From NCBI GenBank assembly GCA_900546695.1, contig URDX01000007.1, positions 331 through 64,330 on the forward strand: DNA of 64,000 bases. Reading direction: 5' to 3'. The notes under the pieces were generated by a model, which had not been told where the DNA came from, made no database searches, and saw only the letters and a program-made list of their open reading frames with translations. This DNA is from an uncultured Eubacteriales bacterium. Lineage in GTDB: Bacteria; Bacillota; Clostridia; Oscillospirales; CAG-272. Numbering within the stretch: position 1 is the first letter of the stretch; the number at the start of each line of letters is the position of its first letter. Positions 4,079 through 40,151 of the stretch are shown here, piece after piece. Position numbers and translations under genes: made by a program.

Positions 4079-4115
4079 CGATTTCAGGGGGAGGGGCAAA
4101 AAGGTCCGAAGCAAG

Positions 4116-4300
4116 CGGTTTTGCCTGATCAGGCGTACAAGCATACGTCAAGGGGCAAAACCGCTCGCAGAAAAAGCGATAATTGTCCCATCGGGAAAAT
4201 CCGATAGGATTTCATCAGCTTTCCTTGTATTTATGCTGAATAAAAGTTCAAATCACATTTTTATTCACGTTTTTTGTTCCGGACTTTTTTAACATTCCAT
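4116..4300 (-). repeat. ~190-nt structured intergenic repeat, copy I (second copy at 19005-19200)
   Basis: Aligns by eye with 19005-19200. Shared blocks are ttttgcc..ggcgtaca..cgtacgtc..ggcaaaa, gcagaaaaagcg, ggatttcatcagcttt and tccggac(g)tttttta(a/g)cattcc. Both copies begin right after the stop of a minus-strand gene. Confidence 0.5.
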
Positions 4301-12039: not shown

Positions 12040-13293
12040 TCAGAATTTGCTGTTGAGCAGCTCGATGCCGTCGATCTTTACATCGAAGTAAGGAGCAGAA
12101 CGGAACTCGGACTCATGGAAGTAGCCGTTTACGATAGCCTCGGTGTCGCCCGTGTTGTCAGCGTCGGAGTTAACGTCAGCCATGTAGCTCTCAAGAGCAG
12201 CGCCGTCAACGGCGAACTTAGAGGTATCGAATACCTTGAGAGTGCCGTTTTCGAGCTCGTTCTTAACCTCAGCGAGCTTCTCTGCGGTGCCCGCAGCAGC
12301 TGCCTCGGTGTTGATGTCGGAGAGAACAACGGAGCCTGTAGCAAGTGTGCCGGTCCAGTCAGCATCGATAGCCTTGCCGTCCATGGTGTTCTTGATGATA
12401 AGCTCCATGTAAGGCTGCCAGTTGATAGCAGAGGAGATGATGAAGGTCTTGGGGCAAGCCTGAACGGTAGAACCGTTGTAGGAGACATTAGGAACGCCTG
12501 CTGCCTCACATGCGGTAGGAGCACCCATGGAGTCTGCGTGCTGGCTGATAAGCTTGCAGCCCTTAGCGATAAGAGCGTTTGCAGCTTCCTTCTCCATAGC
12601 CTCGTCATACCAAGAACCGGTGAACTGAACCTTCATGGTAGCGGTGGGGCAAACCGATCTTGCGCCGAGGAAGAAGGAGGTATAACCCGAAACAACCTCT
12701 GCGTAGGTGAATGCGCCGACGTAGCCGATAACAGCCTCCTCAGCGGTGAAATCGCCGTTTGCGATCATCTCGTTGAGCTTAAGACCTGCAGCAACGCCTG
12801 CAAGATAACGACCCTCGTAAATAGAAGCAAATGCATTGTGATAGTTGGAAAGACCCTCGGTGTGAGCTCTTGTACCGGTAGCATGGCAGAACTGAACATC
12901 GGTGTACTTCTTAGCAGCCTCGATGAGGTAGGTCTCGTGACCGAAGCTGTCTGCAAAGATGAGCGAGCAGCCCTGATCGACAAGGTCCTCACAAGCCTCG
13001 TAGCACTCCTGACCCTCGGGAATGTTGGTCTTCATGATAACCTGCGAATCGGTAAGACCGGTAGCAGCCTGAGCACCCTTAACTGCGTTGATGAAGTTAA
13101 GGTCATAGGTGGAGTTCTCGTCGTGCAGGAAAATGAAGCCTACCTTGAACTCCTTACCGTCGTTTGCCTTGTTGTCAGCAACGGTAGTCTCGCTGTTATT
13201 GTCGCCGGCAGTATTGCCGCAAGAGGTCGCAAAAGCGGCAACCGAGACAATCATGACAACTGCGAGAGCAATAGAAAGAATCTTCTTAAGCAT
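12040..13293 (-). CDS. BMP-family (Med/PnrA-like) ABC transporter substrate-binding lipoprotein
   Basis: Start trimmed to the ATG at 13293 with a GGAGGA SD. The lipoprotein signal is MLKKILSIALAVVMIVSVAAFATSCGN. The gene is first in the importer operon. Confidence 0.9.
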   Translation of the reverse strand: MLKKILSIALAVVMIVSVAAFATSCGNTAGDNNSETTVADNKANDGKEFKVGFIFLHDENSTYDLNFINAVKGAQAATGLTDSQVIMKTNIPEGQECYEACEDLVDQGCSLIFADSFGHETYLIEAAKKYTDVQFCHATGTRAHTEGLSNYHNAFASIYEGRYLAGVAAGLKLNEMIANGDFTAEEAVIGYVGAFTYAEVVSGYTSFFLGARSVCPTATMKVQFTGSWYDEAMEKEAANALIAKGCKLISQHADSMGAPTACEAAGVPNVSYNGSTVQACPKTFIISSAINWQPYMELIIKNTMDGKAIDADWTGTLATGSVVLSDINTEAAAAGTAEKLAEVKNELENGTLKVFDTSKFAVDGAALESYMADVNSDADNTGDTEAIVNGYFHESEFRSAPYFDVKIDGIELLNSKF

Positions 13294-14090: not shown

Positions 14091-14551
14091 CATCCAAATC
14101 GGATAGGAGACGGTGGTTAACCGCCGTCCTCCCACAACATTCCTCCGCAGTAATTAATCGCTTCTTCGGTACTTTGAGCGGAGCTGACCTCTGCAAGCTC
14201 AACCGCTGCCTTTCGACACGGCTTACTCCTTTTTGAAGCCGGGAGCGTTCCTTGCAAGCCTCCCCGAGTAAGAACAATAACCTTCATTCCGTAACCGCCG
14301 CATCTACTGTATGGAATTCGGGTGCATTGGACTTCTTCTTGTTTGGCAGAGTCGTCCGTCCCAAGTCTGCCTTCTATGCGATTTCTGTTCGTCAGTCCGG
14401 AGCTTTGCCCGCAGAGGCACTTCTCAGCCTCTACATCCGGCTTCCTTCGGATTCCGCCTCACGACGGACACCCTTGCCTTCGGCTAATGCTTCCCGCTGC
14501 CGAGCGCATAGCGGGCTTTCAACATCGAGTTATTGCCCATGTCTGGCACAC
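14091..14551 (-). mobile_element. group IIC intron remnant, copy A (ORF-less, domains IV-V deleted)
   Basis: The minus strand starts GTGTGCCAGACATGGGCAATAAC. It contains GCAAGGGTGTCCGTCGTGAGGCGGAATCCGAAGGAAGC and CTTACTCGGGGAGGC. About 430 nt are nearly identical to copy B. The sequence jumps from ..GCGGAGGAA directly to TGTTGTGG plus a DVI-like hairpin. Boundaries are approximate. Confidence 0.75.
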
Positions 14552-15099
14552 CGAATATTATGCCACTGCGCCGCAGGCGCAATATCACTTTTGCCGCAGG
14601 CAAAAATATCACGCCGAGCAGCGCGAGACTCACTTAACTCGCTTCATCTCGCATTCTGCGGTAAATATCATCCTGTAATATAATTATTTAAAATTGTTCT
14701 TGACATATGTAATTATTTATGATACACTCCTATTGTAAGGAATAGATTTTGTCACATAATCACATAATACGTAAAATAACGTTCCATATAGTTAGTCCTA
14801 AAGTATGCCACCGTATGCTGTGCGCCTCCCCAATTGGATTTATCTGCAGACGTGCAGTGTAGGTACAACCCTCGCGTACGTCTGTTTTTGTTTTACAACG
14901 GAGATTGTATCTCGTAAACTACGAGAAATAGATGACAATATCCATTTGAAAGCGAATACTACAGAGATGTTCAGATTTGGGTATGCATTGATCCCGTATT
15001 TGATAGTCAGATGATTGAATTAAAAGCGTTTTGATTGTGTAAATACCTTTTTCATGCTAAATTTATATGCAGTTGGAATTGCCGGAGTAAGGTGACAAA

Positions 15100-16101
15100 A
15101 TGAAAAGTAACAGTTTGCCGATAGCAAAGCCGTTTTACAGTGTATCGCATTCTCAGGGGACAACCGGAGCAATAATTTACAATAACCCCAGTATGCGAAA
15201 TTGGTACCTAAACAATTCTCTTGTTCTGCAGGCTCGAGCAGACGGACTCGAAAGCAAGCAACCGAAATTACGCATGGATATCTGTCAGTCTAATATAGAA
15301 GACAATCCGTATATTGATCGCCAGCAGCTACTTATGACCTTTCTTGACGGATGTATCAGCCGTGTTGTATGCAATATGATAGACCGTGGGTGGTATGTAT
15401 ATTTCGGAGGAGTGGATGATTATTATATGAAGGGCAGATACGGGTATCACGTACGCCATTATTTACACGACGGTCTAATCTGCGGATATAACCGTGAAAA
15501 GAAAACATACAGCGTTTTTGCGTATGATGAACATATGAGATATTCGTTATTTGAAATGCCGCAACTATGCTTTGATGAGGCAAGAAAATCATCCGAGCGA
15601 ATGGAGTATTGTGGTATGCTTGTAGCCGTCAGGCCGCAGCCTATTCAAATCGACCTTAACCCAATACTGATGCTCGAAAAGCTGCGCGATCATCTTTCGC
15701 CGCCGTCAGCATGGAACTACGACGAGAGCGGTGTAACGGTATACGGCATAGAGGCGCATGAATGTACCATTCATTATATTGAGGCAATTGCAACACCCAA
15801 TTGTCTGCAAGATATCGACATCCGACCGTTCAAGATGTTACTTGAGCATAAGCGTTTTATGCTTGAACGACTTGAAGCACTTGAGTGTTATTACGGACTT
15901 GAAGCAAATTACAGTACTCGATATAAAATAGTAGAAGTTACTGCGGAAAAAATGTGGAATCGGTGCTTGCGTTATACTATGACATCAACTGATTCTGACC
16001 TTTTGGACATGATAGATAAGATACATATTATGCGCGACCTTGAATGGAAAATACTTTCCGATACCGTCGATATGCTATCGGCGAAAGAACGAAGCATGTA
16101 A
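15100..16101 (+). CDS. hypothetical protein, 333 aa; paralog of 31244..32242
   Basis: SD aaggtga. Roughly four-fifths identical by eye to the 332-aa ORF in the RiPP-like operon. There is a possible papain/BtrH-like His motif (HYLHDGLICGYNREKKTYSVFAYDE), but no motif I can assign with confidence. Confidence 0.7.
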   Translation: MKSNSLPIAKPFYSVSHSQGTTGAIIYNNPSMRNWYLNNSLVLQARADGLESKQPKLRMDICQSNIEDNPYIDRQQLLMTFLDGCISRVVCNMIDRGWYVYFGGVDDYYMKGRYGYHVRHYLHDGLICGYNREKKTYSVFAYDEHMRYSLFEMPQLCFDEARKSSERMEYCGMLVAVRPQPIQIDLNPILMLEKLRDHLSPPSAWNYDESGVTVYGIEAHECTIHYIEAIATPNCLQDIDIRPFKMLLEHKRFMLERLEALECYYGLEANYSTRYKIVEVTAEKMWNRCLRYTMTSTDSDLLDMIDKIHIMRDLEWKILSDTVDMLSAKERSM

Positions 16102-16226
16102 TCAAAATTACAGCTGCATATGCGCATGTGATAAGGCTTTGACAGTAATCAGTGTATTGGGCGATCTTTGAAATTGCCATCAAAGCCTTAAGCTGCAAGC
16201 ATTGTTCGTAAAAGGATGCAATCACA

Positions 16227-18047
16227 ATGAGCAAGATAAAAAATCTCGCATCTAATTGCAGAAAGCATGTCGGCAATCTGATGTTCATGTACAGACAAAT
16301 ATTTTCGATTTCAAAAATCAGAATATTTCTTGTCGTTTTACAATGTATAATATCAAACGCATACCTGGTGGTAGATATTTATTTTCTCAAGTATATCGTT
16401 GAGGGATTAATAGGCGGTCGCAGCCTGACATATTTCGCCGCAGTGATAGCAGTAAAGTTAGGTACGCTTTTGTTGATGCAATGCTGCGACAATATCTTTG
16501 AAAACTATGTTTTCAAGAAAATAGATGTGAGAATCGAAAAAGAGCTCGCGATACGTCTGTTCGACAGAATCAAAGACATAAAGCTGAGCAAGATGGAATC
16601 CCCCGAATACTACAACAAATATGAGAAAGCCGTCGCGGAGGTCGGGCAGCGTTCGGGGGCACTTATCGGATATTTTACCTATGTTCTGTCCACCCTTTTG
16701 AACATCGTCAGCCTGACAGCCATCATCTCTTCCCTGAACGTTGCTATGATAATAATTTCGCTTGTCGGAATGCTTGTTACCGTTTGGGCGAACATAGCAA
16801 ATACAAAGAACGTTTATGATGCTAATATGAGCTTTGTGGATACGGACAGAAAAATTAATTACGTTCGTCGTATATTCTATCTCCCGCAGTATGCAAAGGA
16901 TATCAGGAGAACAAATCTGCCGCAGCTGCTGAAAAGAAAATATAATGATGCAATCGACGAAAAGCAGGGCTTGATAAAAAAGCACTGGCCGAAAATCATC
17001 GCGATAGCGGTATCGGGAAGCTGGCTTTATAACGTTGTAAATGTGGGTGCGTCGTATTTGTATCTGGCAATCAAAGCGATGCAGCAGGTCATTTCCGTCG
17101 GCGACGTCACATCGCTTGCTTACGCCGTCAATCAGTTGAGCAACAATTTTCTACAGATATCCAATATCATTCCGCAGGCGATTCAGCATTCATTGTACAT
17201 ACAAAACTATAAAGACATGTTCGACGCATTCAGCGAGGAAGACCTGTATGCAGGCTCCGATAAAGCCGCTGTTACGTGCGCCGGTGATATCAGGCTCGAG
17301 CACGTGTCTTTCAGCTACGTCGGTGCTAACGCAAAAGCAATCGATGATATATGCCTGTCGATAAGAAACGGAGAGCACCTTGCAATTGTCGGTGAAAACG
17401 GCTCGGGAAAAACAACTCTCGTAAAGCTGCTGTCGGCTCTGTATGACCCCTCAGACGGAAGGATATCTATGGGCGGCGTTGATTATAGGAATATTTCCTT
17501 CAAAAGCCTGTCGTCGCTGTTCGGAATCGTTGATCAGGATTTTCAGCACTATGCGTTTTCCATCTCGGAAAATCTCTCTATCCAATGCGACGGTACGGAT
17601 GTCGATGATGAAAGGGCCAGCGATTCGCTGAAAAAAGTAAATATTTATGACGCGATATCGAAGCTTGATAACGGGGTTGATTCTGTTTACTCTAAAGAAT
17701 TCGACAAAGACGGCGTAGACTTCTCGGGCGGTCAGCTCCAAAGGCTCGCCATCGCACGCGCTCTGTATTCCGATGCTCCGATAATGATTTTTGATGAGCC
17801 GTCAAGCGCTCTCGACCCTATAGGTGAGCAAAAGCTGTTTGACACCATTTATGAAAATTGCGCGGAAAAGACGCTCATCATGGTGTCGCATAGGCTCTCC
17901 TGCGTTAAGGATATGGATAGAATTATCGTTCTTGATAAGGGAAGGATAATCGAAATGGGCAGCCATGCGGAATTGATGCACTTGGACGGAAAATATGCTG
18001 AAATGTTTAAATTGCAGGGTGAAAGATACGGTCTTGATAAAGACTGA
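16227..18047 (+). CDS. ABC exporter, fused permease/ATPase (606 aa)
   Basis: N-terminal 6-TM domain. Walker A is GENGSGKTT, the signature is FSGGQLQR and Walker B is IMIFDEPSSALD. Confidence 0.9.
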   Translation: MSKIKNLASNCRKHVGNLMFMYRQIFSISKIRIFLVVLQCIISNAYLVVDIYFLKYIVEGLIGGRSLTYFAAVIAVKLGTLLLMQCCDNIFENYVFKKIDVRIEKELAIRLFDRIKDIKLSKMESPEYYNKYEKAVAEVGQRSGALIGYFTYVLSTLLNIVSLTAIISSLNVAMIIISLVGMLVTVWANIANTKNVYDANMSFVDTDRKINYVRRIFYLPQYAKDIRRTNLPQLLKRKYNDAIDEKQGLIKKHWPKIIAIAVSGSWLYNVVNVGASYLYLAIKAMQQVISVGDVTSLAYAVNQLSNNFLQISNIIPQAIQHSLYIQNYKDMFDAFSEEDLYAGSDKAAVTCAGDIRLEHVSFSYVGANAKAIDDICLSIRNGEHLAIVGENGSGKTTLVKLLSALYDPSDGRISMGGVDYRNISFKSLSSLFGIVDQDFQHYAFSISENLSIQCDGTDVDDERASDSLKKVNIYDAISKLDNGVDSVYSKEFDKDGVDFSGGQLQRLAIARALYSDAPIMIFDEPSSALDPIGEQKLFDTIYENCAEKTLIMVSHRLSCVKDMDRIIVLDKGRIIEMGSHAELMHLDGKYAEMFKLQGERYGLDKD

Positions 18048-18140
18048 GTCGCACTACACGAAAAATCCTCATTCGATCGAGTGGGGATTTTTCTTTTTCT
18101 TTTGCCGACAAAAAACAGCAGACAAAGCGTATTTTCCTGT

Positions 18141-18790
18141 CAGCCGAATCGGGTAGGAGGCGGTGACTAACCGCCTCCTACCACAACACCATGCGTACAG
18201 GTCCGTACACGGCGTTTCGATAAGTTGTTGTTTATGCCTTCTCCTTTGATGACTGCTAAACATTCTCGACCTCTACTCTCGGTTTCCAACCTACCCTCAG
18301 TCATTCAATCTTCATGGAGCAGCTGTTTTCAATCACAATCATTCACCTTTGATTTCACACAGCTTCTTATCGTCCCCCTTCCTCCGCGGTAATTAATCGC
18401 TTCTTCGGTACTTTGAGCGGAGCTGACCTCTGCAAGCTCAACCGCTGCCTTTCGACACGGCTTACTCCTTTTTGAAGCCGGGAGCGTTCCTTGCAAGCCT
18501 CCCCGAGTAAGAACAATAACCTTCATTCCGTAACCGCCGCATCTACTGTATGGAATTCGGGTGCATTGGACTTCTTCTTGTTTGGCAGAGTCGTCCGTCC
18601 CAAGTCTGCCTTCTATGCGATTTCTGTTCGTCAGTCCGGAGCTTTGCCCGCAGAGGCACTTCTCAGCCTCTACATCCGGCTTCCTTCGGATTCCGCCTCA
18701 CGACGGACACCCTTGCCTTCGGTTAATGCTTCCCGCTGCCGAGCGCATAGTGGGCTTTCACCACCAAGTTATTGCCCATGTCGGGCACAC
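18141..18790 (-). mobile_element. ORF-less group IIC intron, copy B (domains I-VI present, no reverse-transcriptase ORF)
   Basis: The 5' end is GTGTGCCCGACATGGGC, immediately 3' of a terminator hairpin. DI blocks resemble (from memory) the Oceanobacillus iheyensis IIC ribozyme: GCAAGGGTGTCCGT.GTGAGG.GGAATC.GAAGGAAGC, AAGAAGAAGTCC, CTTACTCGGGGAGGC. DV reads ACGCCGTGTAC-GGACCT-GTAC-GC-ATGGTGT, with a CGC triad and a 2-nt bulge. DVI is GGTAGGAGGCGGT..ACCGCCTCCTACC. The ~170-nt DIV holds only tiny ORFs. Confidence 0.8.
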
Positions 18791-18794
18791 CGCA

Positions 18795-18836
18795 AAAACC
18801 GTCTCTGCCGTACCGAGGTACGGCAGAGACGGTTTT
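18795..18836 (-). terminator. perfect 20-bp terminator hairpin serving as the 5'-exon target motif of intron copy B
   Basis: The minus strand reads aaaaccgtctctgccgtac-ctcg-gtacggcagagacggttttt, followed by gcg and then the intron GTGTG. Confidence 0.75.
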
Positions 18837-19004
18837 AACGTCAGAAAAACGAAAGCATAAAGCTCCTTGCAATGAATCCCGGCGGGGCTTCCACTGCACC
18901 CGAGGCACTGTGCGTGCATCTGGGCAGCCTCGGCTGCCGTCGTTTTCCGTTATGCACTTTTTAAGCATCTCCGAAATGGGAACAGATAAAACGCCCGGAG
19001 TGCT

Positions 19005-19200
19005 CGATTTTGCCGTACAAGGCGTACACTCGTACGTCGTACGGCAAAAACTGGCGCAGAAAAAGCGGATAACAATTTTTTACGGAGAAATCCGTTTGGA
19101 TTTCATCAGCTTTTTCGGCTTCTGATTTCCCATTTTTGCTTATTACTAATCTTTATCCTCTTTATCCGCTTTTTCGATCCGGACGTTTTTTAGCATTCCT
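19005..19200 (-). repeat. ~190-nt structured intergenic repeat, copy II
   Basis: Starts directly after the groEL stop. It is homologous to 4116-4300. Conserved hairpins are ttttgccgtac..gtacggcaaaa and gaaatcc-aaac-ggatttc, and AAAAAGCGGATAA pairs at long range with TTATCCGCTTTTT. Confidence 0.5.
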
Positions 19201-19201
19201 T

Positions 19202-21183
<1,982 letters not shown>

Positions 21184-27396: not shown

Positions 27397-27482
27397 AAAA
27401 CCTCACCGTGCTTTACTGTAAATATGTGTTTTCTTGTGCTGTATCGTATATCTTTTCTATACATTTATTTTTTGCTTAACTA

Positions 27483-27716
27483 ATTATATCGCATTTTCGG
27501 ATTTTGTGTTAATTTTGACGTGAAACATATCAAATTTGTCCTGAAAAGCATTTTGATGTAAATCGCAGGAAATTTCGTGTCACTTTCGCGAGATTTTCAC
27601 ACCATATTATAAAAATCATTGCATGGCTGTCCGTTGAAAATCCCATCTTCTAATCCCCCTCCGTACAGAGAAAAACGCCGGCGCAGAAAAGGCAGCCTCT
27701 GCAGCCTGCCTTTTCA
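27483..27716 (-). repeat. ~235-bp cassette-junction module, copy 1 (terminator hairpin plus outward promoter)
   Basis: Homologous to 30903-31138 and 39822-40054. The hairpin aaaaggcag-cctctgcagc-ctgcctttt lies at 27686-27715. On the minus strand, -35 TTAACA, an 18-nt spacer and -10 TATAAT (27488-27483) point at ABC gene 25558..27396. Confidence 0.7.
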
Positions 27717-28050: not shown

Positions 28051-28188
28051 TCAATACTCGGATTGATAATTAAACACAAGTATATCACCAACATCGTATT
28101 TATCTTTCTGTTCAATAAATACTCTGTCATCCGGTAAAATAGCGGGATACATACTATTCCCGGTTACAGACACAAAATGTCCTTTCAT
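28051..28188 (-). pseudogene. truncated S24/S26-type peptidase fragment (45 aa)
   Basis: Not in the track because it is under 60 aa. It has a strong SD (aggaggcgacATG) and reads MKGHFVSVTGNSMYPAILPDDRVFIEQKDKYDVGDILVFNYQSEY*. It aligns with the N-terminal half of the 89-aa protein at 35815..36084 (GDSMLPT box) but stops before the His and GDN boxes. Confidence 0.6.
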
Positions 28189-30184: not shown

Positions 30185-30285
30185 CAGTCCGCCTTTTCAA
30201 ATGAATTCCGATAACTATCCTTCGCGCCGAGCACTGTTTTTACCCTTGCATTCTGCCCAAGGTATACCCGGCACTTCCGAGATTG

Positions 30286-30696
30286 TTATTCTTTAGCTTC
30301 CCGCTCGCGCGCATCCTCGTCATACTGCGCCTCGTTCGCCTCAGCCTCGCGCGCATCTCTGTCGTACTTCGCCTCGTTCGCTTCTACCTCGCGGGCATCC
30401 TCGTCGTACTGTGCCTCGTTTGCCTCAGCCTCGCGGGCATCCTCGTCGTACTGCACTTCGTTTGCCTCGGCCTCGCGGGCATCCTCGTCGTACTGCGCTT
30501 CGTTCGCCTCAACCTCGCGCGCATCTCTGTCGTACTGCACCTCATTTGCCTCAGCCTCGCGCGCATCTCTGTCGTACTGCGCTTCGTTTGCTTCTGCCTT
30601 GCGGGCATCCTCGTCGTACTGCGCTTCGTTTGCCTCGGCCTCGCGGGCGTATCTCTCGTACAACTCTTTCTTTTTTTCCGCCGTATGCATATCCAT
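30286..30696 (-). CDS. acidic tandem-repeat protein (136 aa; about eight 14-aa DAREAEANEAQYDE repeats)
   Basis: SD aggagg lies 8 nt upstream. The sequence starts MDMHTAEKKKELYERYAREAEANEAQYDEDARKAEANEAQYDRDAREAEANEVQYDRD... It has no signal peptide or TM segment. Confidence 0.65.
   Translation of the reverse strand: MDMHTAEKKKELYERYAREAEANEAQYDEDARKAEANEAQYDRDAREAEANEVQYDRDAREVEANEAQYDEDAREAEANEVQYDEDAREAEANEAQYDEDAREVEANEAKYDRDAREAEANEAQYDEDAREREAKE
30303..30645. repeat. 42-bp tandem repeat (about 8 units) inside the acidic-protein gene
   Basis: The plus-strand unit is ctcgcgcgcatcctcgtcatactgcgcctcgttcgcctcagc, with point variants. Confidence 0.8.
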
Positions 30697-30902
30697 AACA
30701 GTACCTCCTGTTTTTACCGACCGATATTCGGCTCGATATTTTTAATACGATTTTCGGCAAGGTTCTGCTGCGAGATGTTCAAACGTCACCTCGCAGCAGT
30801 TACGAATCGACGCCGATCAAGTTATACCATGCCGTTCCCGCTGTCTGCACACAGTCAAAAACGACCTCGGTATGCCGTCTCTCCGCATAAAATCCGCCAG
30901 GT

Positions 30903-31138
30903 TGATTATAGCACAACTTTGTATCTTTGTGTCAATCTTGACGCAAAACATATCAATTTTGTCCTGAAATGCATCTTTTTGTCAATGATAGAAAATTGCG
31001 TGTTTTTTCGCAGGATTTTCACACTATTTTACGGAAATTTTTGCGCGGATGCACAAGGAGAATTCCGTCTTTAAATTCCCGTCCCCGCCGCGAAAAGCGC
31101 CCGCGCAGAAAAGACAGCCTCTGCAGTCTGCCTTTTCA
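30903..31138 (-). repeat. ~235-bp cassette-junction module, copy 2
   Basis: The hairpin lies at 31108-31136. On the minus strand, TTGACA (30935-30930), a 19-nt spacer, then extended -10 TGcTATAAT (30910-30905) point at the acidic repeat-protein gene. Confidence 0.7.
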
Positions 31139-31243: not shown

Positions 31244-32242
31244 TTAATACGATTCCCGTGCCGATATCATGTCGACGGTATCCGAAAGTATCCCTCCTTC
31301 AAGGTCGCGCATGATACGTATCTTGTCTATCATATCCGAAAGGTCCGAAGCGTTTAATGTTATAGCATAATGCAAACACCGATTCCACATTTTTTCTGCC
31401 GCAGCCGTCACCTGCTTGTAGCGCGTACTGTAATCTGCTTCAAGTCCATAATAACGCTCAAGCGTTTCAAGCCGTTCAAGCATAAATTGCTTATGTTCAA
31501 GCAACATCTTAAATGGTCGGATATCAACATCCTGTGACTCATCGAGTTTTGCAAACGTCTCAATATATCGAATGGCGCATTCATGCGCCTCTATACCGTA
31601 CACCGTAACTCCACGCTCGTCATAGTGCCACGCCGATGTCAGCAAAAGATGGTCACGTAGCTTTTCAAGAATCAGCATCGGGTTAAGTTCAAACTGTACC
31701 GACTGTGGCCGAACAGCCGCAAGCGTGCCGCAACACCCCATCCGCTCGGATGACTTTCTCGCCTTGTCAAAGCATAGCTGCGGCATTTCAAACAATGAAT
31801 ATCTCATACGCTCATCATACACAAAAATGCTGTATGTATTCTTTTCGAAGTCATACCCACAGATAAGACCGTCGTGTAGATAATGGCACATATGATATCC
31901 GGCCCTGCCCTTCATGTAATAATCATCCACTCCGCCGAAATAAACATACCACCCACGATCTATCATATTACGTATCACACGGCTGATACACCCGTCAAGG
32001 AAAGTCATAAGCAGCTGCTGACGGTCTATGTATGGATTATCTTCTATATTCGATTGACAGACATCCATGCGCAGCCTCGGCTGATCCCCCGCGAAACTCT
32101 CCGCCCGCGCCGATAAAACGAGTGAATTGTTTAAATACCAATTTCGCATACTCGGATTATTGTAAAGAATCGCTCCTATCGTACCCTGAGAATGTGATAC
32201 ACTGTAAAACGGCTTTGTTATCGGCAAACTGTTACTCTTCAT
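31244..32242 (-). CDS. hypothetical protein, 332 aa; last gene of the RiPP-like operon and paralog of 15100..16101
   Basis: Same orientation as the radical SAM genes, 158 nt downstream of them. It is followed by the module-2 terminator. Confidence 0.7.
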   Translation of the reverse strand: MKSNSLPITKPFYSVSHSQGTIGAILYNNPSMRNWYLNNSLVLSARAESFAGDQPRLRMDVCQSNIEDNPYIDRQQLLMTFLDGCISRVIRNMIDRGWYVYFGGVDDYYMKGRAGYHMCHYLHDGLICGYDFEKNTYSIFVYDERMRYSLFEMPQLCFDKARKSSERMGCCGTLAAVRPQSVQFELNPMLILEKLRDHLLLTSAWHYDERGVTVYGIEAHECAIRYIETFAKLDESQDVDIRPFKMLLEHKQFMLERLETLERYYGLEADYSTRYKQVTAAAEKMWNRCLHYAITLNASDLSDMIDKIRIMRDLEGGILSDTVDMISARESY

Positions 32243-35814: not shown

Positions 35815-36084
35815 TTACTCAATTACTCTTCCGATAATTTTATCTACACGAACAGCAAAGCTATCCGGTTCGAGACAATTGTCGCCCTTTGTTTTTATAA
35901 ATGAATAACCATTTCTTGTGTTAATCACCTTAATGATTCGATGACAAATAATCAATTCACCGACTTTAAATACAACAATATCATCCGGATACACTTTCCC
36001 GTCTTTTACAGCTTCCACTTTATACATGTTGCCATTCTGCAGCGTTGGCAGCATGCTATCCCCTTTCGCAATGATATACACCAC
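35815..36084 (-). CDS. minimal TM-less S26B (SipW/ER-type) signal-peptidase-like protein (89 aa)
   Basis: The boxes GDSMLPT, ELIICHRII and TKGDNCLEPD match the remembered Ser/His-type signal peptidase motifs (SGSMxP, xHR, TKGDNNxxxD). GTG start with SD gaggga. There is no hydrophobic segment. Confidence 0.7.
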   Translation of the reverse strand: MVYIIAKGDSMLPTLQNGNMYKVEAVKDGKVYPDDIVVFKVGELIICHRIIKVINTRNGYSFIKTKGDNCLEPDSFAVRVDKIIGRVIE

Positions 36085-39608: not shown

Positions 39609-39821
39609 AACAGTACCTCCTACTTTTGCAGACCGATACACGGCTCGGTATTTTTTATACGTTTTCGGCAATGTTCTGTCGCGAAATGAGCAAATGTCAC
39701 TTCGCAACGGTTACGAATCGACGCAATTATCAGGCTATAACTTTCCTCACGATTCACACTTGCGCTCTGCCACAGATGACTTGGAAGGGTATCAAATCCC
39801 CGTATTCATTTCGTTTGATTT

Positions 39822-40054
39822 ATTATAACACAATTTCAGTTTTTGTGCTGATTTTGGCGTGAAACGTATCAATTTTGTCCTGAAATGCACCTTTTTGTAA
39901 ATCGCAGGAAATCGCGTGTTTTTTTTACGGGATTTTCACACCATTTTATAGGAATCTTTGCGTAGCTGCGAGAGGAGAATTCCGTCTTTAAATTCCCCTC
40001 CCCGCTGCGAAAAGCGCCCGCGCAAAAAAGCCAGCCTCTGCAGCCTGCCTTTTC
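39822..40054 (-). repeat. ~235-bp cassette-junction module, copy 3
   Basis: The hairpin lies at 40024-40053. The extended -10 TGtTATAAT (39827-39822 on the minus strand) points at the frameshifted repeat-protein gene and the RiPP-like operon. Confidence 0.7.
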
Positions 40055-40151
40055 AGAACGCCTTCAACAGCGGTATTATTTTTCCTCGTCGGCGTTATAC
40101 TCCCCCGTCGCTGTTATGCTTCCGCATCGCCGTTATACTTTCACGTCGCCG

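What the first reader, a model, noticed from the sequence alone, without database searches (positions are those of the whole stretch)
14091..18790. Two same-orientation intron copies bracket a lower-GC two-gene module that duplicates part of the RiPP locus
Between the intron copies lies a 3.6-kb segment that is visibly more AT-rich than the core genome. It has its own promoter-like sequence (TTGACA at about 14697) and a terminator-like hairpin (cagacgt..acgtctg plus a T-run at about 14846-14893). It also carries the 333-aa paralog and an ABC exporter, both on the strand opposite to the introns.

Direct repeats of ~430 nt at ~98% identity are substrates for homologous recombination. They could excise, amplify or have delivered this module. 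The arrangement resembles a composite element built from retroelement copies rather than from IS elements.
Basis: inference. Interest (0 to 1): 0.55.

Follow-up and report, generated by a model that had tools for sequence, protein, structure and literature searches.

The report
Intron-bracketed peptide-gene cassette beside groEL
Two copies of a small, protein-less group II intron sit as direct repeats around a 3.6-kb remnant of a peptide-antibiotic-type gene cluster next to groEL, and closely related gut strains either have this cassette, have a longer intact version, or have just one intron copy, which suggests that recombination between the intron copies moves the cassette in and out.

Summary
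A 414-nt direct repeat (14140-14553 and 18379-18792, 98.3% identical) is the D1-D3 part of a group II intron on the minus strand.

- **Right copy:** 18148-18790, a complete ORF-less intron of class C type. It lies directly after the groEL terminator.
- **Left copy:** 14098-14551, a relic without D4-D5.
- **Module between them:** GC 42%, against 53-57% in core genes. It has a promoter-like site, a leader hairpin, a 333-aa gene and an ABC exporter. The 333-aa protein is 79% identical to the 332-aa protein at 31244-32242.

I compared ten loci from strains with an identical GroEL protein (one is identical to the window here).

- Five have one intron copy at this site. That copy has the right copy's 5' variants in four of the five, and the left copy's 3' end in all.
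- Four have right copy, 3.6-kb module, left copy.
- One has the same ends around an 8-kb intact radical-SAM peptide cluster, so the window's module is a deletion remnant.
- A sister species has no intron.
- One metagenome contig carries the junction expected of an excised circle or a tandem copy, but it could be an assembly error.

Best explanation: homologous recombination within the intron repeats inserts and deletes the cassette. It is a new variant of repeat-flanked islands, not a transposon.

The parts
18148..18790 (-). Right copy (R): complete ORF-less group II intron, 643 nt. 5' end GTGTG. D1-D3 at 18379-18790, an ORF-free D4 of about 160 nt, D5 at 18185-18216 and D6 at 18152-18182.
   Evidence: RF02001 at 111 bits. 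RF00029 (D5-D6) at 34.5 bits, E 5e-4, below its cut-off of 40. D5 folds as 32 nt with a CGC triad and a 2-nt bulge; D6 is a 13-bp hairpin. There is no ORF of RT size.
14098..14551 (-). Left copy (L): intron relic of 454 nt. It has D1-D3 joined directly to the last 4 nt of D5 and a diverged D6 hairpin. D4 and almost all of D5 (about 190 nt) are missing.
   Evidence: RF02001 at 111 bits. There is no RF00029 match. Alignment and sequence. Its D6 keeps its pairing through changes on both strands.
14140..14553 (.). Left arm of the 414-nt direct repeat (intron D1-D3 plus 2 nt of 5' exon).
18379..18792 (.). Right arm of the 414-nt direct repeat.
18795..18836 (-). Intrinsic terminator hairpin (19 bp plus a T-run) downstream of groEL. 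The intron starts 4 nt after the T-run.
   Evidence: Self-complementary 42 nt. Folds at -40.8 kcal/mol, z -9.8. Present without an intron in the sister species (L015).
14552..18147 (+). Lower-GC module between the two intron copies.
   Evidence: GC 0.423. Present or absent as a unit among strains.
14700..14728 (+). Promoter-like site TTGACA-17-TACACT with a TG extension.
   Evidence: Conserved upstream of the radical-SAM gene in the long cassette.
14846..14893 (+). Leader hairpin followed by a T-run, between the promoter and the first gene. A possible attenuator, or the end of a small leader RNA.
   Evidence: Fold. Stem pair T-A in the window and C-G in L012.
14897..15048 (.). Scar region where about 4.6 kb of the long cassette is missing: radical SAM enzyme, ACP-ferredoxin protein, two precursor peptides, S8 peptidase and a 74-aa protein.
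15100..16101 (+). 333-aa protein of a rare uncharacterised family, paralog of 31244-32242. The predicted fold resembles the carrier-protein-dependent amide-forming enzymes CtaG, CcbD and AziU3.
16227..18047 (+). ABC exporter, 606 aa (fused permease and ATPase).
18060..18103 (+). Terminator-like hairpin with a T-run after the exporter gene, facing the 3' end of R.
19202..20839 (-). groEL, the core gene on the right flank.
12040..13293 (-). Bmp/PnrA-type substrate-binding protein gene, the first gene of the core ABC importer operon on the left flank.
31244..32242 (-). 332-aa paralog inside the larger radical-SAM / ACP / ABC locus.

Best explanation
**What is shown**

The groEL-Bmp intergenic region of this uncultured gut Clostridia species carries a relic of a class C type group II intron just after the groEL terminator. 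This is the usual target of that intron class.

In some strains a gene cassette lies there between two direct intron copies. The copy next to the terminator is a complete ORF-less intron. The copy next to Bmp is the relic.

The cassette was originally an 8-kb radical-SAM peptide cluster with these parts:
- a leader;
- a radical SAM enzyme;
- an ACP-ferredoxin protein;
- two Cys-rich precursor peptides;
- an S8 peptidase;
- a 74-aa protein;
- the 333-aa CtaG/CcbD-like protein;
- an ABC exporter.

In the window it has lost 4.6 kb. Only the leader, the 333-aa gene and the exporter remain.

**What is inferred**

The cassette entered by a single crossover between the resident relic and a complete intron carried next to the cassette on the incoming DNA. 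This is Campbell-type integration of a circle, or the equivalent double event.

The cassette leaves by the reverse crossover between the two 414-nt repeats. That crossover leaves one hybrid copy in the chromosome and releases a circle carrying the other hybrid copy. Unequal exchange between sister chromosomes would give tandem copies with the same junction.

The introns serve as portable homology for the host's recombination system. Their own retromobility is not involved in moving the cassette.
For: **Three allelic states differ by exactly one repeat period.** The repeat period is 4239 nt.
- Five loci with the same GroEL protein read terminator, 463-nt L-type stretch (the 454-nt relic plus 9 flanking nt), Bmp flank.
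- Four read terminator, R, 3594-nt module, L.
- One reads R, 8-kb module, L.
- These come from independent assemblies, including contigs of 0.35-1.8 Mb.

**The single copy is an R/L hybrid.** All five single copies have the L-type 3' end. In four of the five, the first 44 nt carry the variants found in R copies. Four of five L copies carry a different 5' haplotype (A at position 10).

**Copies exchange sequence within a genome.** R and L of one strain share variants that distinguish strains (L003, L008, L009), so they undergo gene conversion. D1-D3 differ by 1.7%. The D6 hairpins lie beyond the 190-nt gap and differ by about 20%. This fits homogenisation limited to the contiguous homology.

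**A reciprocal junction exists in one contig.** Contig L014 reads module left end, full intron with L-type 5' variants and R-type D4-D6, module right end. That is the junction of a circle or a tandem copy.

**State is not tied to the flanks.** Flank haplotypes within 400-800 nt are reshuffled relative to cassette state. For example, L007 (long cassette) shares its right flank with L003 (short cassette) and its left flank with L006 (empty).

**No mobility genes.** The module holds no recombinase or transposase gene.

**A sister species lacks both.** L015 is about 92-93% identical over the syntenic region. It has the terminator but no intron and no module.
Against: - **Direction.** Direction and frequency of the events cannot be read from these data. 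All empty alleles could be ancestral, and the filled allele could have arisen once and spread by recombination in the flanking core genes.
- **Exception.** One empty allele (L006) has the L-type 5' haplotype right up to position 10. A simple R x L crossover does not predict this; it needs an extra conversion event.
- **Junction contig.** The junction contig is short (1935 nt). A short-read assembler taking the wrong exit from the 414-nt repeat would produce the same sequence.
- **Donor unknown.** No other chromosomal site, plasmid or phage with this intron or this module was found. The donor context is therefore unknown.
- **No experiment.** There is no experimental evidence for excision.
Confidence: 0.65

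Rival explanations
1. The intron duplication marks one old integration event, and the repeats are no longer active. Today's presence/absence pattern comes from allele replacement. Imported DNA recombines in the conserved flanking genes (groESL, Bmp operon) and swaps the whole intergenic region.
For: - Flanks are more than 99% identical among strains and clearly recombine.
- groESL is also bordered on its other side by a region that differs completely between strains with the same GroEL, so wholesale replacement does occur here.
- The short module has the same internal deletion in all strains that carry it, so it arose once and then spread.
Against: - The single copy at empty sites is an R-5'/L-3' hybrid in four of five cases, and R and L exchange variants within genomes. 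The repeats therefore do recombine.
- Cassette state is uncoupled from flank haplotypes only 400-800 nt away.
- This rival still needs recombination inside the intron for the founding event.
Confidence: 0.2
2. Two separate events. The cassette was inserted between the terminator and the resident relic by some unrelated mechanism. A complete ORF-less intron then retrohomed to the same terminator, helped by a reverse transcriptase encoded elsewhere. The near-identity of D1-D3 arose later by gene conversion.
For: - Class C introns target intrinsic terminators, and recognition depends mainly on the upstream hairpin, which stays intact (PMC4424553, PMC4748821).
- R has an intact-looking D5 and D6.
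- The closest intron with a reverse transcriptase also sits directly after a terminator.
Against: - The predicted intermediate (module plus L without R) was not seen in any of the ten loci.
- It needs two independent insertions at one spot.
- It does not explain why filled and empty alleles differ by exactly one repeat period.
- No reverse transcriptase gene is in the window or the fetched loci.
Confidence: 0.1
3. The repeat arrangement is an assembly artefact, or the whole 4.7 kb is one giant cargo-carrying intron.
For: Repeats of 414 nt are hard for short-read assemblers. Introns can carry cargo in D4.
Against: - The same arrangement is found in at least five independent assemblies, including very long contigs.
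- The 3' partner (L) has no D5, and R has its own D5-D6 before the module. The span therefore cannot fold as a single ribozyme.
Confidence: 0.02

Closest known systems
Bacterial class C (IIC) group II introns, such as B.h.I1 and O.i.I1, and their rare ORF-less derivatives
   Same: - The ribozyme matches group II D1-D4.
- D5 is short with a CGC triad, and the 5' end is GTGTG.
- The intron lies a few nt after an intrinsic terminator.
- The closest relative with a protein (Peptoclostridium acidaminophilum plasmid, 76% identical over D1) has a 465-aa RT/maturase without an endonuclease domain and also follows a terminator (PMC4424553).
   Different: - No intron-encoded protein.
- One copy lacks D4-D5.
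- The D5-D6 score is below Rfam's cut-off.
- Splicing and mobility are untested.
- Whether a helper reverse transcriptase exists in the genome is unknown.
IS-bounded composite transposons and IS26 translocatable units
   Same: Two direct copies of a mobile element bracket cargo genes. The empty site keeps one copy. A circle with one copy plus the cargo is the expected intermediate.
   Different: - The flanking elements are retroelement relics without any enzyme of their own.
- There is no target-site duplication around the unit.
- The unit was seen at one site only.
- Movement would depend on host homologous recombination, not on transposition.
Group IIC-attC introns in integrons, and the Leon and Roy proposal that recombination between two such introns helps build gene cassettes (model recalled from memory; orientation and promoter facts from PMC3001079)
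   Same: A class C type intron lies next to cassette genes in the orientation opposite to their transcription. Recombination between intron copies is invoked to join unrelated DNA.
   Different: - No attC site or integron integrase was looked for or seen.
- The target here is a housekeeping-gene terminator.
- The cargo is a multi-gene cluster with its own promoter.
Microcin H47 genomic island of E. coli (PMC3191183)
   Same: A ribosomal-peptide gene cluster lies in the chromosome, flanked by long imperfect direct repeats and with no recombinase of its own. It excises and integrates, leaving hybrid repeats.
   Different: There the repeats are not mobile-element copies, and the exchange was independent of homologous recombination. 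Here the repeats are intron copies, and the mechanism is inferred, not tested.
Group II introns as substrates of ectopic recombination in Wolbachia (Leclercq et al. 2011, recalled from memory; association with amplified cid islands in PMC13439711)
   Same: Intron copies act as dispersed homology and are associated with modular, amplified gene islands.
   Different: Those are full-length, RT-encoding copies among other mobile elements. A clean copy-cargo-copy unit with matching empty sites was not described in the text I read.

Membership tests
Group II intron (ribozyme) | Domain 1-4 sequence and structure | tested here: met
   RF02001 at 111 bits (cut-off 32) for both copies.
Group II intron (ribozyme) | Catalytic domain 5 (triad, 2-nt bulge) followed by domain 6 | tested here: inconclusive
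   R matches RF00029 at 34.5 bits, E 5e-4, below the cut-off of 40. It folds as a 32-nt D5 with a CGC triad and an AU bulge, plus a D6 hairpin with an A 7 nt from the 3' end. L has no D5 at all, so L fails this feature.
Group II intron (ribozyme) | 5' GUGYG boundary | tested here: met
   GTGTG at 18790 and at 14551. It aligns with the GTGCG of the Peptoclostridium relative.
Group II intron (mobile retroelement form) | Intron-encoded reverse transcriptase/maturase in D4 | tested here: not met
   D4 of R is about 160 nt. There is no RT-sized ORF in or near either copy.
Class C (IIC) group II introns | Insertion just after an intrinsic transcription terminator | tested here: met
   A 19-bp hairpin plus T-run ends 4 nt before the intron. 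The same terminator lacks an intron in the sister species. The feature is as defined in PMC4424553 and PMC4748821.
Class C (IIC) group II introns | Class-specific exon recognition (short IBS1/EBS1, IBS3/EBS3, no EBS2) and IEP phylogeny | not tested
   No full secondary-structure model was built and there is no IEP to place. Indirect support only: the nearest relative has an En-less 465-aa RT.
Composite transposon | Flanking elements supply or are recognised by a transposition enzyme, and the unit moves to new sites with a target duplication | tested here: not met
   No enzyme is encoded. One flank lacks the catalytic domain. The unit was found at a single site in all strains. It was found nowhere else in the collections searched. 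There is no duplication outside the intron copies.
Repeat-flanked island moved by recombination between its repeats | Direct repeats at both ends, and an empty site with one hybrid repeat | tested here: met
Repeat-flanked island moved by recombination between its repeats | Circular or tandem recombinant junction | tested here: inconclusive
   One 1935-nt metagenome contig has the junction. Misassembly through the repeat cannot be excluded.
Radical-SAM modified peptide (RiPP) gene cluster | Precursor peptide plus radical SAM maturase, with protease and exporter | tested here: not met
   Met by the long cassette in L012: radical SAM enzyme of 453 aa, two Cys-rich precursors of 46 and 48 aa, an S8 peptidase and an exporter. 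The window's module keeps only the 333-aa gene and the exporter.

The most novel reading that the evidence does not exclude
Relics of a protein-less group II intron act as a dedicated docking site. A cassette that carries one intron copy circulates as a circle, or by DNA transfer, within a gut bacterial population. It can dock by host recombination wherever a copy of the intron lies behind a terminator. In this way a retroelement's target preference becomes a safe-harbour system for swapping peptide-antibiotic-type gene clusters. The logic would be that of an integron or a translocatable unit, but without any dedicated recombinase.
Probability: 0.2. Interest if true: 0.7.

Novelty: new variant of a known kind. 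Interest (0 to 1): 0.5.

Why it matters
Group II introns in bacteria are mostly treated as selfish retroelements that hide behind terminators. Here dead or protein-less copies appear to have a second role as homology arms. These arms let a biosynthetic gene cluster be gained, shortened and lost next to an essential operon.

The population data offer a natural series: no intron, one copy, short cassette, long cassette. This series makes the idea directly testable.

The result also shows how peptide-natural-product clusters turn over between strains of one uncultured gut species. It flags a rare protein family with a predicted CtaG/CcbD-like fold that travels with these clusters.

Tried and rejected
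**Searches that found nothing**
- An exact 24-nt intron pattern found nothing in the genome collection or the viral collection.
- The D5 pattern found nothing in viral contigs. In metagenomes it found only the junction contig.
- The module has no match in plasmid or phage records, even in distant mode.
- No intron lies in the loci of the two 333-aa homologues whose context was fetched (P0002, P0005), or in 80 Bmp loci of related Clostridia.
- The 333-aa protein has no significant Pfam match (only DUF5028 at E 0.0085, below its cut-off) and no NCBIfam or PDB sequence match. Only the predicted fold gave a lead.
- Literature searches found no description of a cargo unit bracketed by group II intron copies. 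Three key papers (Robart 2007, Leon and Roy 2009, Leclercq 2011) were not available, so what I say of them is from memory.

**Ideas rejected**
- One giant cargo intron: L lacks D5, and R is complete before the module.
- An assembly artefact: many independent assemblies agree.
- The exporter as a duplicate of the larger locus: only about 30% identity.
- The 69-aa ORF at 14805-15014 as a gene: no family match, and it lies in the deletion scar.
- Using the variant table to decide whether empty alleles are ancestral or derived: both directions predict the same hybrids.

Full report
**1. What is at the coordinates**

A search for repeats in 12-21 kb found one long direct repeat. Alignment and BLAST set its limits at 14140-14553 and 18379-18792. 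It is 414 nt long and 98.3% identical, and the seven mismatches all lie near the high-coordinate end.

Rfam matches both copies on the minus strand to the group II intron family RF02001, at 111 bits against a cut-off of 32. Read on the minus strand, each copy begins with GTGTG, at 18790 and at 14551.

The two copies are not equivalent.

- **Right copy (R).** It continues through about 160 nt without an ORF to a match with the D5-D6 family RF00029. That match scores 34.5 bits, E 5e-4, below the cut-off of 40. This stretch folds into a 32-nt D5 with a CGC triad and a 2-nt bulge. A 13-bp D6 hairpin follows, with an adenosine 7 nt from the end. The z-score is -5.4. R is therefore a complete ORF-less intron of 643 nt (18148-18790).
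- **Left copy (L).** It jumps from the end of D3 to the last four bases of D5 and a D6-like hairpin (14098-14551). It lacks about 190 nt, including the catalytic domain.

The D6 hairpins of R and L differ at about one position in five yet keep their pairing. D1-D3 differ by only 1.7%.

**2. Intron class**

R begins 4 nt after a perfect 19-bp terminator hairpin with a T-run (18795-18836; -40.8 kcal/mol, z -9.8). The hairpin lies downstream of groEL on the same strand.

The closest intron with a protein that I found is on a Peptoclostridium acidaminophilum plasmid (76% identical over D1). It also starts directly after a terminator. It encodes a 465-aa RT/maturase with RVT_1 and GIIM domains and no endonuclease domain.

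Insertion after intrinsic terminators and En-less proteins are the marks of class C (IIC) introns. ORF-less introns are rare in bacteria (PMC4424553; PMC4748821). I did not model the exon-binding sites, so class C membership is likely but not fully tested.

**3. The module**

*Composition.* The 3.6 kb between the copies has GC 0.423. The window has 0.503 and the neighbouring core genes have 0.53-0.57. GC3 is 0.43-0.52 against 0.62-0.72. The larger radical-SAM locus at 27-40 kb is equally or more AT-rich, so low GC is typical of these cassettes.

*Features on the plus strand:*
- a promoter-like site at 14700-14728;
- a hairpin with a T-run at 14846-14893;
- the 333-aa gene;
- a 606-aa ABC exporter;
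- a terminator-like hairpin at 18060-18103.

*The 333-aa protein.* It is 79% identical to the 332-aa protein at 31244-32242, and the DNA similarity covers just that gene. The exporter is only about 30% identical to the eleven other exporters of the window.

The 333-aa family is rare, with 18 clusters among 5.8 billion sequences. It has no significant Pfam match (only DUF5028 at E 0.0085, below its cut-off) and no NCBIfam or PDB sequence match. The two homologues whose context I fetched also sit in loci with radical SAM and ABC genes and other peptide-biosynthesis-type genes.

A confident AlphaFold model (pLDDT 91) resembles AziU3/U2, CtaG and CcbD, with Foldseek E 1e-7 to 1e-4 and TM 0.53-0.62. 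From my own knowledge, these are papain-like enzymes that form amide bonds on carrier-protein-bound substrates. This fits the small ACP-like genes in these loci.

**4. Comparison with related genomes**

Looking up the exact GroEL protein returned ten loci from independent gut metagenome assemblies and one NCBI genome. One of them (L002) is identical to the window over this region. BLAST of the window's pieces against them gave three states.

- **Empty (L001, L004, L005, L006, L010).** groEL, terminator, one 463-nt L-type stretch (the 454-nt relic plus 9 flanking nt), then the Bmp flank.
- **Short cassette (L002, L003, L008, L009).** R (the 645-nt query stretch), the 3594-nt module at 98.5-100% identity, then L.
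- **Long cassette (L007, also fetched as L012).** R, then the exporter and the 333-aa gene at 99.8% identity. Next come 4.6 kb that the window lacks, then the last 346 nt of the module at 90% identity, then L.

The extra 4.6 kb encodes:
- a 74-aa protein;
- an S8 peptidase with a DUF1611 domain;
- two Cys-rich precursor peptides of 46 and 48 aa;
- an ACP-like/ferredoxin protein;
- a radical SAM enzyme.

The promoter and leader hairpin stand in front of the whole set. The window's module is therefore a deletion remnant of a complete peptide-modification cluster.

Filled and empty alleles differ by exactly one repeat period (4239 nt). A sister species (UMGS824, about 92-93% identical across the syntenic region) has the terminator but neither intron nor module.

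**5. Evidence that the repeats recombine**

I aligned the 414-nt segment of 15 copies and found 32 variable positions.

- **5' haplotypes.** At the 5' end there are three haplotypes. Two occur in R copies and in four of the five single copies at empty sites. The third (A at position 10) occurs in four of five L copies.
- **3' ends.** All single copies have the L-type 3' end. A single copy is thus R-like at its 5' end and L-like at its 3' end, as a crossover inside the repeat predicts in either direction.
- **Gene conversion.** R and L of one strain share variants that differ between strains (L003, L008, L009). This indicates gene conversion. It also explains why D1-D3 are nearly identical while D6, beyond the gap, is not.
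- **Flanks.** The 400-800 nt flanks are reshuffled relative to cassette state. L007 (long cassette) has the right flank of L003 (short cassette) and the left flank of L006 (empty). Over the core genes all strains differ by less than 1%, and the states are interspersed.
- **Exception.** L006 does not fit. Its single copy has the L-type 5' haplotype.

**6. A possible reciprocal product**

The one metagenome contig containing R's D5 (L014, 1935 nt) reads as follows:
- part of the 333-aa gene;
- the module's left end;
- a full intron with L-type 5' variants and R-type D4-D6;
- the module's right end.

This is the junction of an excised circle or of a tandem duplication. A short-read assembler leaving the repeat by the wrong branch would give the same sequence, so I treat it as suggestive only.

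**7. Interpretation**

The best-supported account is that homologous recombination within the intron repeats integrates and deletes the cassette. The introns serve as portable homology and their own mobility plays no part (confidence about 0.65).

The main rival is that the arrangement arose once and is now passed around by recombination in the flanking core genes (about 0.2). Both processes may operate.

Two separate insertions, the second being retrohoming of R, are less economical. The predicted intermediate was not seen (about 0.1).

A giant cargo intron and an assembly artefact are excluded.

**8. Relation to known systems**

The unit looks like a composite transposon or an IS26 translocatable unit. 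It fails the defining test, because no enzyme is encoded or recognised and it occupies a single site.

It resembles the microcin H47 island, a peptide cluster between long direct repeats without a recombinase (PMC3191183).

It also resembles proposals that class C introns next to integron cassettes recombine to build cassettes. The orientation opposite to the cassette genes is the same as in PMC3001079. The recombination model itself I recall from memory.

I found no description of a cargo unit bracketed by group II intron copies with matching empty sites. I rate it a new variant of a known kind, of moderate interest.

Noticed in passing
window 21000-51000; L001-L010 upstream of groES: Strains with an identical GroEL protein carry at least four or five entirely different gene sets on the other side of groES. 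These are various mixes of ABC exporters, radical SAM enzymes, ACP-like proteins, S8 peptidases, NTP_transf_5 and MutS-like genes. groESL therefore sits between two hypervariable regions. No intron was found on that side.
   Followed up: partly
window 30247-30724 (ORF 30286-30696, minus strand): Eight tandem 42-nt repeats encode a 136-aa protein made of 14-residue units (EANEAQYDEDAREA-like). It lies directly downstream of the 332-aa paralog. No family match was found, and it could be a repetitive precursor or scaffold.
   Followed up: partly
window 27470-27716, 30926-31138, 39809-40055: A repeated intergenic sequence family (78-86% identical, up to 247 nt) recurs three times within the larger radical-SAM/ABC locus. 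It may be a shared leader or regulatory region, and it differs from the leader at 14554-14897.
   Followed up: no
window 14729-14893; L012 5180-5350: The leader between the promoter and the first gene ends in a hairpin with a T-run. One stem pair changes on both sides between strains (T-A to C-G). This could be an attenuator or a small RNA of about 165 nt. No Rfam family matches it.
   Followed up: partly
L012 7539-7679 and 7716-7862: The long cassette encodes two near-identical Cys-rich precursor peptides (...VILCAGIAPMATYEADCWSGVCYSSGCYSKGC). They lie between an ACP-like/ferredoxin fusion protein and an S8 peptidase with a DUF1611 domain. The peptide class is unidentified.
   Followed up: partly
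window 15100-16101 (alignment A3): In the 333-aa family the position near the N-terminus where CtaG and CcbD have their catalytic Cys appears to hold a nearly invariant Ser (S14). H120, H123, D106 and D107 are invariant and D143 is nearly so. This may be a Ser-His-Asp variant of the papain-like amide synthases. It rests on residue numbers recalled for CtaG, not on a structural superposition.
   Followed up: no
window 14533-14561, plus strand: A weak promoter-like site (TTGCCC-17-TATTAT, 9 of 12) spans the 5' end of the left intron copy and points into the module. This recalls the outward promoters described in group IIC-attC introns (PMC3001079). It may be chance.
   Followed up: no
window 4099-4178 and 18988-19067: An 80-nt palindromic intergenic element occurs twice (71% identical), once between groEL and the terminator. 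It looks like a small dispersed REP-like repeat.
   Followed up: no
window 14560-14625, minus strand: The sequence just upstream of the left intron copy (the module's left end) folds into a long imperfect hairpin (-39.6 kcal/mol, z -3.2). A terminator-like motif lies about 45 nt before the intron. It could be the original terminator-type target of the complete intron in the donor context.
   Followed up: partly
window 28051-28188 and 35815-36084: Very short S24/S26-type peptidase-like ORFs (45 and 89 aa) lie next to ACP-like genes in the larger locus. The 45-aa ORF looks like a fragment.
   Followed up: no
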